From positions 10,478,001 to 10,542,000 of the forward strand of contig CM068748.1 of NCBI GenBank assembly GCA_035084275.1: 64,000 nucleotides of DNA. The letters are read 5' to 3'. Within the stretch, counting starts at the first letter, position 1; the number at the start of each line of letters is the position of its first letter. This document shows, one piece after another, positions 10,715 through 44,592 of this stretch. A program made the position numbers and the translations under genes. The DNA comes from Hydrolagus colliei (lineage: Eukaryota). A model generated the notes under the pieces. It saw nothing but the letters and a program-made list of their open reading frames with translations, searched no databases and was not told where the DNA came from.

Positions 10715-11620
10715 TGCGAACTATTGTGATTGGTGCAGCCCAGTAGCAGTTGGTGACCAATCGGCGCTGGCCTCAGGAGCAGGTGCCGCGGTGTTAGTGA
10801 ACGCGGCACGGATTGGCTGCGGGGCTGTCAGGTGACCGCGCGCGGTTTATGGCGGTGAGGTGTTTTTTTGGCTTAGGCCTGTGGAGAGTTCTGAGGCGAG
10901 TTTGTTTTAAAATTCCTTTTTTTTAAAAAGAACCATATTTATACACACACACATATATATAAGAACAAGAAGCGGCGGAGATTCCGCGGGTAACAATACC
11001 AACGATAACTCGGTGTCCGGGTATTAGAAGCTGCATTGATATCCCGCCTGGTGAAGGCAGAGCAGAGCGCGCCGTCAGCCCCCACCCCCACCACTCGAAG
11101 GGAAGGAGCCGAACGAGAGCCGGGAGGAGGAGGAGGAGGAGGCGGCGGCGGCGGCCGGCGATCGAGGGATTTCACAGAGGGTCGTGAAAGGTGGTGAGTA
11201 ACAAGACCGTGCACTGTGGGAAGAGGAGGAGGGGCTGATTGCAAAGCGACACATACATCGAGGCCTGGGCCCAGTTCCTGCTTTAGGGGAATTTCCCCCA
11301 ACTTGCAATGGGGATATACACGAGGGACCAAATCAGATAAGAGGCTGTCAATCCTGCGGGGGGGTCTTCCTGTAACGGGCGGGCCCCGACCCCCCCATCC
11401 CATACAGGGTCTTAGATGTTAAAGATTTTAAAAAACTTGCGCCCTGACAAAGTTGTTTTGAAGGTGTTGCCGTTAACGGCTCATGGCTTCGAGTTGTGAT
11501 GAAAACCATTATTGTGATGGTCGTGGGGGTGGGTGGGGGGGGGACGGGTGAGAGGGACAGCAGGACCCGGGGAACGTGACCTGGGTCAGCGAGGACACCG
11601 CGCACACAGCGATTCACCCT
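10715..11620 (+). promoter_or_regulatory. WAPL: CpG-island promoter region of WAPL
   Basis: The main CpG-rich non-repeat segment of the window. CCAAT/ATTGG boxes at 10729, 10757 and 10812, YY1-like ATGGCGG at 10849, TATA-like TATATAAG near 10956. Lies 3.2 kb upstream of the first coding exon. Confidence 0.8.
10985..11193 (+). other. WAPL: WAPL non-coding exon 1 (5' end uncertain)
   Basis: GC-rich, contains (GGA)6(GGC)5, no ATG. Ends at donor GTG|GTGAGT (11193/11194); tandem alternative AAG|GTGGTG at 11190. TSS inferred. Confidence 0.65.
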
Positions 11621-12699
11621 CTCACACAACAGGAAAACTTTCTCCAGATGTTAATGATGCCCACTTTTGCTGCCCACCGCCTGACCTGTGCCAAAGCTGT
11701 TGACATCCCATACGCAATAGAAAGGAGAAATGTGATCAAAATAAGCGATGTGTCAATCCTAGATAGGATCCCAGATGTTTTTAACCTGCTGTAGCTAGTA
11801 TTTTTTTGAAACAGAAAATGAATGAGTTTTGGAAGTTTCAAACTCTTGGGAGTTTTGTTAATAACAAATAACAAGTACAGTGTTTTCATGACTGGATCCC
11901 ATGGTATCGTGGCCTGCTCTAAAAAGGCAGATAAAGCAGACAGAGAGAGAGAGAAAAAATGCCATTGCATTTGTAGAAATCTTCCCTGCAAGATCAATTA
12001 AAATAAACTTGACAAATGTTCAGATCAGAAATTATATTATGAATATATCAAATTGATTGAGTACATTTTCCAAATTGGGAGATTATTTATCTCTTACTGT
12101 ATTGATTTGTGAGAAGACTTGTGAGAAATCTAATAATCTTCATATTGCTTCATTTTGTTTCATTTAGTTTATTTTTAATAAGTTACTCTTGGAGAACCAT
12201 AGAAACAGAATTGAAAAGATTGTTCAAGCATAAGAGTTTAATTTAAGAGCAATTAAATCACAAAAGCACCAATTCTATTGTGTGGAATTAGTTAATGAAT
12301 CCAAAGGTATTTTCTGATTGTAAGTTTGTTTAACTTCCCATGAACACAGTGAATCCCTGTTGTATTTTAATAAATTGCCTAGGAATAGTTTCTTCACTGT
12401 TTGGCGGGTGGGGTCGGGGGAGACGGATGACTACGTACAAGGGCTGGAAAATATTAGTCATGATTTCATTGAGTTATGAAATTCTGTTATGTCAATCATA
12501 TTTGAAAATGTATTGATCATCTGGCCTCCCCTCTATTTTACATTTTAAATATTTTTAGAATATTATAATTTGACAACAAAATATTAAGTATAATATAATA
12601 TTAAGTATTAAAGAATACTCTACTCTTTTGTGATGCTGCTTTAGTGTTTTATGTTTGTATAAGAATATTGTTTTATATAATAGGAAGTTTTTTTTGCAC

Positions 12700-12970
12700 A
12701 TTTTGCGTTTGATATCATGTCTGCTAGACGTCTCAAAGCACTTCACAGAATATACTGTAAAGTGAATTGACTGTACATATGTGGGTAGATCGTGGCAGCC
12801 AATTGTGCACAGTAGTGTCCCACAAACAATATCGGATTGAAAAGACCAATTTTTTTTAGGGATTATTATCAAGCATGTAGAGTAAGAAAATTTGCCCAAG
12901 GATTCTTGGCTGGAAATGAACCCAAGTCTCTCGCTTGTAAGGCGAGTGCTCTAACCGCAGTTATCAAGAC
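12700..12970 (-). mobile_element. tRNA-derived SINE (family of 6079-6381)
   Basis: Reverse complement of head (ggttagagcactcgccttacaagcgagag), core and tail. Confidence 0.8.
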
Positions 12971-14440
12971 TGTTATTGATACACTTTATACTTGATATCT
13001 TTAGTTATGTGCTTATGCCACAAAAATCAATAACTAGTACAACGAGACATTGCATTTGAACAGGATACTAAGAAGTATTGGTTTAATAAGGAATCCGGTT
13101 CTTGGAGAAACGTTAATAGTAGCTAAATTATAATTTGGTATTCAGTAGATTATCAGAGATGATTTCCTAACTGTGTTTTTACTGTAGCAAAGTAATAATG
13201 CTTTATATTATATACCTTCACAATAAATATTTTAAAAAAGCAAATGATCATTGCATTTATTTTCTGCTAACTACATCAGTATTGGAATATTGCTTTGCCA
13301 AATTATTTAGAAGTTCAATGGTTATTTTTGATACTACTACACCAGGACCTATTCTGATACTGCTACACCAGGATATTGTATGTTGATGAAATATATTGGT
13401 ATTTTAAAAAAAACTTCACTGTAATTATATGAGCATTTTATTGGGTAAATCAAAATATTGTATTAAGCAAATTTTCAGCGTAATCAGCAAAAAAAAATTC
13501 TAAATTTGAAAATTAACCTACATTGGGGCTTGGTTTACCATAAAATTCTGTATCTTAAGTTTTTTTTCCTGTTTTTAAATGGACTTTCCTGTAGCTGTGA
13601 AATGTAACACAGTCTCCTTATGTCCAGAATCAACACTCATTTGAAAAGTTGAAGCGCATCTCGCGCTTATTAATATATTACAAATTTCCTATGTATTGCC
13701 TATTGTCCTGATCAGCCTGTTTTGAGTGGTTGAAGCACTTGCTAGTCTAGAAGAATATGTATTAAATACACAGAAATTCGCAGCTACGAATTATGCAAGA
13801 TTCAGGGCAAAGGGGAATGCTAGTTATAATTTCAGCCATCCATGTAAATGAACTGCATGGCTGCAATTATATAGGTAAGACTCAGCAATGATTATATAGA
13901 GGGCCAAGATTTTAAATGTTGGTTTACTACACAAAAGGAACTGTTTCAATGAAATGAAGACTAATTGGATAGGTAGATATTCTTTTCTTGGTGGTGTACT
14001 TAAGGGTCTTTGAAGTATACCCTCATCTATAAGACAAAAAGCAAGCACAACTCAATTTACTAAAAACATCTAGACATGATTACCCATTGATTTGCACCGG
14101 TGCAAATGTTTGTGTTTTGTGTGGGAGTTTCCATTGATTTATCTGAAGTTTTATGTTACTGTTATTGCTATAGCTTCTACGTTTTCTGTGTTACACTTCA
14201 AATTTTTGAAGGAATGATGTATAACCACATCATCTTATAGCTAAAAGTATATATTGATCTGGAATATGTTCAATATATACTTTTTTGAAATACAGAACAT
14301 TTTATTTTTACTTAAGTATGCTTATCTGTCTAAGGGATTTATTACATTGGATCTCATTCTCAGTTTTTGCATGTAATTTGAATTTAAATGAAACTGAATA
14401 TCACTTGTATTTATTTATTCTTTTTATAATTACAGGGAAT

Positions 14441-14461
14441 ATGAAAGAGGTGTCAACATGA
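14441..14461 (+). other. uORF MKEVST* whose TGA overlaps the WAPL ATG
   Basis: ATG AAA GAG GTG TCA ACA TGA; the main ATG is 14458-14460. Confidence 0.7.
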
Positions 14462-14962
14462 CGTCAAGATATGGGAAAACCTACAGCAGGAAAGGAAGCA
14501 ATAGCAACTCAAAATTTGATGAGGTGTTCTCTGGTAAACGAGCTAAAATAAGCACAAAATGGGGAGAAACCACCTTCAAGGCTCAGGTGGGCCAGAAGAG
14601 GCCCAATTTGAAACCAGAACCAGTGGAGCCACCAAAGCGGCAGAAAGTTGAGGAGGAATTGTCAGAGGACCCTTTTGGGTTTGACAGTGATGATGAATCG
14701 CTACCTGTCTCATCGCGGAATATCACCCCATCAAAGGGGCAGCAATCTGTGGAGTCTTTGAAATCAACAGATGTGGATAATGTAACCACTCTGCTAGAGG
14801 CCAACAGTCGAATCAGCCAACCAAACAGTGGTGATGCTATTGCGTCTAGCAAGTCAGCATCTTTGGATGCGGCAATTCAGCAGAGGAGTACAATCAAAAA
14901 TTTTAGTGGGTTTTCTGATGATGGAGGAATAAAAGTCCCTGGCACGAAATTGAACACTATAG
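14458..14962 (+). CDS. WAPL: WAPL exon 2 (first coding exon; exon starts 14436)
   Basis: MTSRYGKTYSRKG... (YSR motif), DPFGFDSDD (FGF motif 1). Acceptor tacag| at 14435, donor AG|gtaagt, ends phase 1. Confidence 0.97.
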
Positions 14963-43080: not shown

Positions 43081-43720
43081 GATTCATAGATTCATAGAAT
43101 TTTACGGCACAAAAGGAGGCCATTCGGCCCATCTAGTCTGTGCCGGCTCTTTGAAAAGAGCGATTTAATCCCACTGCCCTGCCCGCTCCCCATAGCCTAA
43201 TAGACCTGTTCTCCCTAAATAAAGATCTAATTCCCTTTTAAAAGTTGTTATCGAATCAGCCTCCACCACCTTTTCAGGCAATGCATTCCAGATTCGAACA
43301 ACTCGCTGAGTGAAAAAATTTCTCCTCAGCTCCCCTCTACTGCGCCTTGAAACTATTTTAAATCTGTGACCACGAGTCACAGATTCGCCCACGAGTGGAA
43401 ATAGTTTTTCTCTATTTGCCCTGTCGAAACCCCTCATGATTTTATAAACCTCTATTAGGTCTCCCCTCAATCTTCTCTGCTCCAGAGAGAATAACCCTAG
43501 CCTATCTAGCCTCTCCTCACAGCTGAAGTCCCTCAATCCTGGCACCATCCTAGTAAATCTTCTTTGTACCCTTTCCAATGTCTTCACATCCTTTCTGTAA
43601 TGTGGTGACCAGAATTGAACACAGTACTCCAGCTGAGGCCTCACCAAAGTCCCATAGAGGTTAGTCAGCACTTCCTGACTTTTGTACTCTATACCCCTAT
43701 TTATAAAGCCTAGTATCCCA
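43081..43720 (-). mobile_element. Young 5'-truncated CR1 LINE (ORF2 C-terminus and 3' UTR)
   Basis: Uninterrupted ORF: LVRPQLEYCVQFWSPHYRKDV..LEQRRLRGDLIEVYK..RRNFFTQRVVRIWNALP. Terminal (TCTATGAA)n microsatellite at 43081-43098. Confidence 0.93.
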
Positions 43721-44592
43721 TTGCTGAACACTAAACATTTCAATATTACTGAATCACAGTTGTGCTACATAACTCAATCATATTCTCTTGTGCATGCTGG
43801 CAACTAGATTTTGGGACAGGGGAGTGGGTGGGGGGGAAACAGGACAGTATTATTCGCTGTCACAAGTTCACTTCGGCATCCATGTTCATTAGTAGATGTG
43901 CAGAATCATGGTATTCCATTGTATTAAATGTTGCTTTCAAATGATACTCCTAATGCATAATGCTGCCATGCTCTTTGCAAGATCTTGGCTGCCTCCTCTG
44001 AAACAGTTTTTTAAAAATATATTAAAGCCTCTTGTGGATTCAGCTTTAACAGCTGTTTGTTTCTTCGACTTCCTTGAATTATGTTTTCATATTTTCCCCT
44101 TTTTTCTTGTGAGTTATTAATTTGTATCCTCGTTCTCATTATACATATTTAGAAAGTATCTTAACACTGCCTTTTGTGCGGTAATGACTACCATAAATGA
44201 CCAAGTATTCTTTATGTAAGTTCATTCTTTGATTATAAGGCCACCAATTTTTTCTATTTCTTCTGTCTTTTCTGAATATATTTAAATTTTACTTGCTTCT
44301 GTCATGCTGCAATATATTTTCCTTAGATTTATATGAATATGATTATTTAGTGGGTTGGACAAACCTATCTTTAATAACCAGGCATATAATCATAGATATC
44401 GCGCAATTGATTCCAACCAATCTGTGTCAGCAGTAAATTATGATCTTAAAAATATCTTGTATAATATGACCGTATTGAGAATTGAGCATAAATTTAATTG
44501 AAATGTGTACAATTTCATATTGAATTCTCTTTCCAATGTACACATTATGAGTCCATTCTTTTGATTTCTGCCATATATATTTATTATATCAG

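What the first reader, a model, noticed from the sequence alone, without database searches (positions are those of the whole stretch)
14436..14461. uORF whose stop codon overlaps the WAPL start codon (ATGA)
Seen: ATG 14441 (A at -3, context as good as the main ATG) is the first AUG of the inferred mRNA. It encodes MKEVST and ends at TGA 14459-14461, overlapping the main ATG. Known: ribosomes terminating past a start codon cannot reinitiate by forward scanning, so WAPL would depend on leaky scanning or stop-start reinitiation. WAPL level controls cohesin residence time and loop length (for example PAX5 repression of Wapl in pro-B cells). My unverified recollection is that human exon 2 begins similarly (GAATATGAAACTGGTGTCAAAATGAC), which would keep both the uATG and the overlap. 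Inference: a deeply conserved translational rheostat for cohesin release.
Basis: partly seen in the sequence, partly recalled or inferred. Interest (0 to 1): 0.7.

Follow-up and report, generated by a model that had tools for sequence, protein, structure and literature searches.

The report
Ancient decoy start codon before WAPL
A six-codon mini reading frame sits just in front of the gene for WAPL, the protein that unloads cohesin from chromosomes; its start codon is kept from chimaeras to humans and likely diverts some ribosomes to hold this dose-sensitive protein down, though that use is untested.

Summary
Real and conserved; mechanism partly misread. ATG 14441 opens MKEVST and stops at TGA 14459-14461, overlapping the WAPL start. 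Spliced contigs of a close relative join 11193 to exon 2 and carry the identical uORF. A teleost record and a published human primer keep GAATATGA at the same place while the peptide changes. In 35 of 35 N-terminally extended WAPL models the residues fit A-(T/C)-G at that spot. Corrections: it is probably not the first AUG (ATG 10849; human exon 1 has two translated uORFs). The overlap comes free with Thr2. Termination leaves the P site 2 nt before the main AUG, so no back-scanning is needed. Human WAPL translation is not arsenite-resistant (Z -0.09) or DENR-dependent (log2FC 0.003). Best reading (0.5): a fixed leaky-scanning brake. Initiation at this AUG is not shown. I found no paper describing it; the scan earlier noted a similar overlap for SETD5, not WAPL.

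The parts
14441..14461 (+). Six-codon uORF (MKEVST, stop TGA); its ATG is 17 nt before the WAPL ATG, out of frame with it
   Evidence: identical in the spliced contig of organism A
14437..14444 (+). Conserved octamer GAATATGA holding the uATG and its -3 A
   Evidence: 8 of 8 identical to teleost L002; present in the human primer; fits 35 of 35 extended protein models at the A and G of the triplet
14458..14460 (+). WAPL start codon (Met-Thr, so ATGA); the uORF stop TGA is 14459-14461
14436..14962 (+). WAPL exon 2 (22 nt of leader, then coding), AG acceptor 14434-14435, GT donor from 14963
10843..11193 (+). Non-coding exon 1; 3' end shown by splice joints, 5' end inferred from contig and read ends
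10849..10926 (+). Second upstream ORF (25 codons), ATG about 6 nt from the inferred 5' end; organism A has a 1-nt insertion after 10862
11194..14435 (+). Intron 1 (GT...AG), skipped in contigs X1, X4, X5, X6

Best explanation
A start codon conserved from chimaeras to humans sits 17 bases before the WAPL start and likely acts as a fixed brake, capturing part of the scanning ribosomes so that WAPL is probably made mainly by those that leak past it. Shown: position, frame, presence in spliced RNA of a relative, conservation of the ATG and its -3 A while the peptide changes. Inferred: ribosomes start there, translate six codons, stop on the TGA that Met-Thr supplies for free, and mostly leave, because a 2-nt move gives little time to reload initiator tRNA. 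The two AUGs have the same context class, so with recognition probability p at each the WAPL yield would be about p(1-p). That caps output and damps it against global changes in start-codon stringency (arithmetic on an assumption, not measured).
For: Nucleotide level: 4 of 4 sequences seen (window, organism A, teleost L002, human primer; three deep lineages) have [AG]GAATATGA at the start of exon 2. Window against teleost: 8 of 8 identical at exon positions +2 to +9, 5 of 13 at +10 to +22 (Fisher p 0.007, boundary chosen after looking); synonymous third positions in the first 45 codons match in only 7 of 13 two-fold and 6 of 15 three/four-fold sites. Peptides differ: MKEVST, MTQMQQ, and human MKLVS-K/R (from the primer plus the baboon model's spacing). 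Protein level: among 274 proteins held, 35 models run upstream through this stretch in frame. Position -7 is E in 35 of 35, -6 is Y34/H1, -5 is E22/D12/V1, and -4 to -1 vary. The rare H and V change letters beside the triplet and leave A-y-G intact. Named lineages include shark, coelacanth, bichir, an elopomorph, percomorphs, frog, snakes, birds, marsupials and baboon. One further unnamed model (P0272) has a one-codon insertion that keeps the frame. No stress or DENR response in human data fits a fixed brake. 17 nt is the edge of the range in which two AUGs compete (PMC9743702, passages).
Against: No initiation data: the exon-2 uORF is absent from the human uORF (6,617 rows) and overlapping-uORF (1,209 rows) sheets of PMC4739776, which list two exon-1 uORFs for WAPAL and do include 18-nt ORFs. 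It is also absent from the WAPL rows of PMC10032668 and PMC7494916. Protein models cannot tell TAT from TAC, and the T alone would be kept across two lineage comparisons about 3 times in 10 at the background rate. The conserved octamer abuts a splice acceptor, so splicing could explain it. The 35 models are related and not independent. In human the two exon-1 uORFs, one with high translation efficiency, may dominate control.
Confidence: 0.5

Rival explanations
1. A regulated switch: cell state changes how often the uAUG is skipped, or how often ribosomes restart on the overlapping AUG, and so tunes cohesin release without changing mRNA.
For: Mouse Wapl protein is 2.2-fold higher in pre-B than pro-B cells at equal mRNA, and the authors leave translation or stability open (PMC10121685, passages). 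WAPL protein falls on eIF2A knockdown in hESCs with unchanged mRNA (PMC13127588, one passage). The P-site geometry allows restart without back-scanning.
Against: Arsenite: WAPAL translation efficiency fold change 0.18, Z -0.09, against ATF4 1.3, Z 8.16 (PMC4383229 supplement). DENR knockout: log2FC 0.003, rank 6569, not a hit (PMC7494916 supplement). The 17-nt gap leaves almost no window for delayed reinitiation. No conserved UGGGA motif upstream and no fold better than shuffles. These are single cell lines and whole-gene values.
Confidence: 0.2
2. The octamer is kept for splicing (exon-start context or a purine-rich enhancer right after the acceptor); the ATG is a tolerated bystander that is seldom used.
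For: Conservation is confined to exon positions +2 to +9, next to the acceptor. E at -7 (GAR) is invariant in 35 of 35 although its G is not part of the uATG context. The ORF is absent from three human ORF tables.
Against: The first exon base itself varies (G in the window, A in organism A, teleost and human). The letters that stay fixed across substitutions are those of A-y-G and the -3 A. The frame to the main ATG is kept in all 36 extended models, including one with a 3-nt insertion, which splicing does not require.
Confidence: 0.2
3. The 22 nt are conserved as protein code: alternative first exons or non-AUG starts read through them in frame to give N-terminally extended WAPL (E-Y-E-x-x-x-x-M).
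For: 35 database models do read through in frame, some from apparent alternative first exons. The seven-codon spacing has no frameshift. The frame is open back into exon 1 in the window.
Against: Organism A has an in-frame TGA across the exon 1-exon 2 joint. The window has no in-frame AUG and no good-context near-cognate start in that frame in exon 1. Residues -4 to -1 change non-conservatively, and what lies further upstream differs between models, in many cases looking like translated intron.
Confidence: 0.1

Closest known systems
Short conserved AUG uORFs that lower main-ORF output by leaky scanning (class reviewed in PMC10275272, section 8 read)
   Same: Out-of-frame AUG in good context, short ORF, start conserved but peptide not.
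   Different: No gap at all between the uORF stop and the main start, and only 17 nt between the two AUGs; repression is not measured here.
Human SLAMF1 last uORF with overlapping UGAUG stop-start (PMC5972666, passage)
   Same: Cellular uORF whose stop overlaps the main start codon.
   Different: 29 codons and UGAUG there, with a UGGGA-related motif; 6 codons and AUGA here, with no conserved UGGGA.
TURBS-dependent termination-reinitiation of caliciviruses and influenza B (PMC5972666, PMC10275272, passages)
   Same: AUGA overlap of stop and start.
   Different: Those follow long ORFs and need a structured 18S-pairing element; none is found here.
ATF4/GCN4 delayed-reinitiation leaders
   Same: An upstream short uORF (human exon 1) followed by a second uORF that runs over the main start.
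   Different: Inhibitory AUG only 17 nt from the main AUG; human WAPL translation is not stress-resistant.
Human WAPL exon-1 uORFs (NM_015045 positions 43-87 and 54-191; c10riboseqorf68)
   Same: Same gene and leader; listed as translated in Ribo-seq tables.
   Different: Different ORFs in exon 1, 14 and 45 codons; they do not touch the main start.

Membership tests
Repressive short AUG uORF | AUG-stop frame upstream of the main start in the mature mRNA | tested here: met
   (spliced contigs of a close relative, not of the window's species)
Repressive short AUG uORF | Start codon conserved beyond neighbouring sequence | tested here: met
   4 of 4 nucleotide sequences, 35 of 35 models compatible; splice constraint not excluded
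Repressive short AUG uORF | Ribosomes initiate at the uAUG | tested here: inconclusive
   Not listed in three human ORF tables; the start-site table of PMC8287933 could not be read
Repressive short AUG uORF | Removing the uAUG raises main-ORF protein | not testable with these tools
   needs a reporter or genome edit
Conserved-peptide uORF | Peptide sequence conserved | tested here: not met
   MKEVST against MTQMQQ
ATF4-type stress switch | Main-ORF translation kept or raised under eIF2-alpha phosphorylation | tested here: not met
   human WAPAL fold change 0.18, Z -0.09 (one data set)
ATF4-type stress switch | Long stretch between inhibitory AUG and main AUG for delayed reloading (feature recalled) | tested here: not met
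   17 nt
DENR/MCTS1-dependent reinitiation uORF | Translation efficiency drops in DENR knockout | tested here: not met
   human WAPL log2FC 0.003, not a hit (one cell line)
TURBS termination-reinitiation | Overlapping stop-start (AUGA) | tested here: met
TURBS termination-reinitiation | Conserved UGGGA motif in a structured element upstream | tested here: not met
   no + strand TGGGA in 10843-11193; one arises at the splice joint in the window only, not in organism A; folds z -0.61 and +0.65

The most novel reading that the evidence does not exclude
The paired AUGs form a translational dial for cohesin release that is as old as jawed vertebrates: shifts in start-codon selection or direct stop-to-start restart change WAPL protein at constant mRNA, and this accounts for the unexplained 2.2-fold Wapl protein rise from pro-B to pre-B cells that reshapes chromatin loops.
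Probability: 0.15. Interest if true: 0.75.

Novelty: new member of a known kind. Interest (0 to 1): 0.45.

Why it matters
Loop size is very sensitive to WAPL dose: a 2.2-fold change in protein reshapes chromosome architecture in B-cell precursors, and that change is not explained by mRNA (PMC10121685, passages). Search listings also show Wapl dosage effects in mice (PMC9710879) and a preprint naming WAPL a cohesinopathy gene (PMC12970359); I saw only the start of those two abstracts. A single conserved ATG 17 nt before the start gives a one-base edit that tests whether translation sets WAPL level. It marks a 5' UTR position where human variants could matter, and, if it represses, a handle for raising WAPL. 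As a kind of element it is ordinary: short conserved uORFs are common.

Tried and rejected
No RNA holder listed by the run search; only what the lays showed is used. The laid contig runs are marked 'RNA?' by the tool; I read them as spliced RNA because they skip the intron at GT...AG. Raw reads of organism C barely covered exon 2 (depth under 1 at the uORF) and say nothing about it. Scans of genome contigs (1 locus, a 19-residue acidic match in a bacterium, rejected as chance) and viral contigs (0 of 22 candidates) gave no vertebrate DNA. The single metagenome scan gave 1 locus. Pfam found nothing significant in two N-terminal pieces; identity rests on homologs. RNA structure at the uORF and in exon 1 was no better than shuffles; a small stem over the start codon was not pursued. 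The ATGA overlap as evidence of selection was rejected because Thr2 forces it. Literature: WAPL+uORF (4 papers) and WAPL+'upstream open reading frame' (3 papers): the WAPL passages of PMC13143143 and PMC13127588 were read and do not describe it; PMC9917848 and PMC13001929 were seen as listings only. WAPAL+ribosome profiling+upstream gave 0, and one search showed no title on a WAPL leader. The supplement of the zebrafish 5' UTR preprint as held had no wapl row (23,577 characters only). The start-site tables of PMC8287933 were unreadable and a GTI-seq paper was not held; both could bear on whether the uAUG is used. One search opened an unrelated paper by a wrong id. No cyclostome sequence was identified; a snail WAPL has a different N-terminus.

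Full report
Observation. The window reads acceptor AG at 14434-14435, then 22 nt of leader and the WAPL start at 14458. ATG 14441 translates to MKEVST and ends at TGA 14459-14461. Both ATGs have A at -3 and A at +4. The coding frame begins MTSRYGKTYSRK. Residues 1-90 are 99% identical to Callorhinchus milii WAPL and 83-88% to shark and ray WAPL, so this is WAPL of a chimaera-like fish. The 1.0-Gb genome gave one match.

Transcript. Contigs of a related organism (A; 31 differences in 526 nt of exon 2) join 11193 to 14437 with one letter, A, between, in runs X1, X5 and X6. In X4 the loose end after 11193 is identical to window 14437-14464. Exon 1 therefore ends at 11193, exon 2 is 14436-14962, and the uORF is in spliced RNA of that relative. 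X4's contig starts at 10843, those of X5 and X6 at about 10844 (from bin depths), and two raw RNA reads of organism C at about 10845. Contigs cannot prove a start site. If the 5' end is there, ATG 10849 (25 codons) lies about 6 nt from the cap and 14441 is the second AUG. AUGs that close to the cap are usually skipped (established knowledge), so 14441 may still be the first efficient one. Whether organism A keeps ATG 10849 is not shown: three differences in 10843-10903 were not listed.

Chance. In 5000 dinucleotide shuffles of the 373-nt leader, some uORF ended on the ATGA in 19.8%, one starting within 22 nt in 6.1%, and with a purine at -3 in 3.8%. The stop needs no explanation of its own: Met-Thr always reads ATGA, and 266 of 266 N-termini matching my pattern have Thr2. 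Of the 274 proteins held, 8 did not match; four of those also have Met-Thr by eye, three are fragments and one is a snail protein. The whole N-terminus is conserved, so Thr2 cannot be credited to the uORF.

Conservation, nucleotides. One metagenome scan returned a single locus, L002, whose protein is 98% identical to Dicentrarchus labrax WAPL. It has the acceptor, then the same octamer, the same 22-nt leader and the uORF MTQMQQ ending on the ATGA. A genotyping primer for human WAPL in PMC11735404 (one passage read) covers the acceptor and the first 20 nt of exon 2 and has the ATG at the same place. With the baboon models' spacing and human Met-Thr, the human uORF is inferred to be six codons too. 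Window against teleost: 8 of 8 identical at exon +2 to +9, 5 of 13 at +10 to +22 (p 0.007, boundary chosen after looking). Nearby synonymous sites match in 7 of 13 (two-fold) and 6 of 15 (three/four-fold) cases.

Conservation, protein models as a window on the leader. Some database models extend in frame through the 22 nt: 15 of the 120 listed (of 580 hits), 11 of the 120 listed (of 1072) and 9 more among the 37. In these 35, position -7 is always E, -6 is Y (34) or H (1), -5 is E (22), D (12) or V (1), and -4 to -1 take three to seven residues each. Y/H and E/D/V are the changes that leave A-(T/C)-G untouched, and E supplies the -3 A. A 36th model, P0272, has a one-codon insertion and keeps the frame. 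Named sources span shark, coelacanth, bichir, an elopomorph, percomorph fishes, frog, snakes, birds, marsupials and baboon. Limits: the models are related, and proteins cannot tell TAT from TAC. At the background rate the T alone would survive two lineage comparisons about 3 times in 10. No cyclostome was identified.

How it most likely works. What is conserved is the start codon, its context and its frame, not the peptide and not an RNA fold (z -0.61 and +0.65). That is the profile of a decoy start. A scanning ribosome meets two AUGs of the same context class 17 nt apart, at the edge of the range where AUGs compete (undetectable beyond about 17 nt in yeast; PMC9743702, passages). Those that start at the first make six codons and terminate. 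The barrier is reloading Met-tRNAi with no distance in which to do it. A review notes that short distances may favour restart if factors are still bound (PMC10275272, section 8), so some restart is possible. I infer that most WAPL comes from leaky scanning and that the element is a fixed brake (0.5). Initiation and repression are not shown.

Results against a regulated switch. Human WAPAL under arsenite: translation-efficiency fold change 0.18, Z -0.09 (ATF4 1.3, Z 8.16; supplement row of PMC4383229). DENR knockout: log2FC 0.003, not a hit (supplement row of PMC7494916). There is no conserved UGGGA motif of the viral stop-start systems described in PMC5972666 (passages). Results for one: mouse Wapl protein is 2.2-fold higher in pre-B than pro-B cells at equal mRNA, with translation or stability left open (PMC10121685, passages). 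WAPL protein also falls on eIF2A knockdown without mRNA change (PMC13127588, one passage). Neither paper links this to the leader element in what I read.

Results against use of the AUG. Human Ribo-seq tables list only exon-1 uORFs for WAPL: positions 43-87 (flagged high efficiency, conserved in mouse) and 54-191 in PMC4739776 (supplement rows, files uncut), the 45-codon c10riboseqorf68 in PMC10032668, and a 14-codon uORF in PMC7494916. A six-codon ORF abutting the main start is hard for periodicity-based callers (my judgement), so this is weak, but it is the only direct evidence and it is negative. Start-site tables that could settle it were not readable.

Rivals. Splicing could hold the octamer in place (0.2), but the first exon base varies and the frame is kept. 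In-frame N-terminal extension (0.1) is contradicted by the TGA at the joint in organism A and the lack of an in-frame start in exon 1. A regulated switch keeps 0.2.

Novelty. Searches for WAPL with uORF terms showed no description of this element in what I read; subscription journals and uORF databases were not searchable, and automatic catalogues will contain it as a predicted uATG. The scan's own notes had nothing on WAPL, only a SETD5 case with the same overlap. Verdict: a real, deeply conserved, apparently uncharacterised uORF of an ordinary kind, on a gene where two-fold changes matter and where a published mRNA-protein mismatch is open. Interest 0.45.

Noticed in passing
window 10849-10926: ATG about 6 nt from the inferred 5' end, in an ATGGCGG context that resembles a YY1 site (motif recalled). 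Human WAPL has two translated uORFs near its 5' end; homology to this one was not tested.
   Followed up: partly
window 14436: First base of exon 2 is G here but A in organism A, teleost L002 and the human primer. In organism A this makes an in-frame TGA across the splice joint; in the window it gives TGG and leaves the main frame open back into exon 1.
   Followed up: yes
window 14471-14473: Out-of-frame ATG 13 nt after the main start (26 codons), made by the Tyr5 codon of cartilaginous fishes; absent where residue 5 is Phe (teleost L002, tetrapods). It is in the same frame as the uORF.
   Followed up: partly
window about 12715-12960: High-copy transcribed repeat in intron 1 with very large contig and read depth; probably a SINE-like element.
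   Followed up: no
window 13672-13935 and 14008-14194: Intron 1 segments covered by low-depth contigs of organism A (X5, X6); pre-mRNA or an alternative exon, not resolved.
   Followed up: no
L002 (minus strand, upstream of 429): The teleost uORF carries a second in-frame ATG (MTQMQQ) 8 nt before the main start.
   Followed up: partly
window 43165-43764 (-): 199-codon open frame that looks like the C-terminal part of a CR1/L2-type LINE reverse transcriptase (resemblance recalled, not searched).
   Followed up: no
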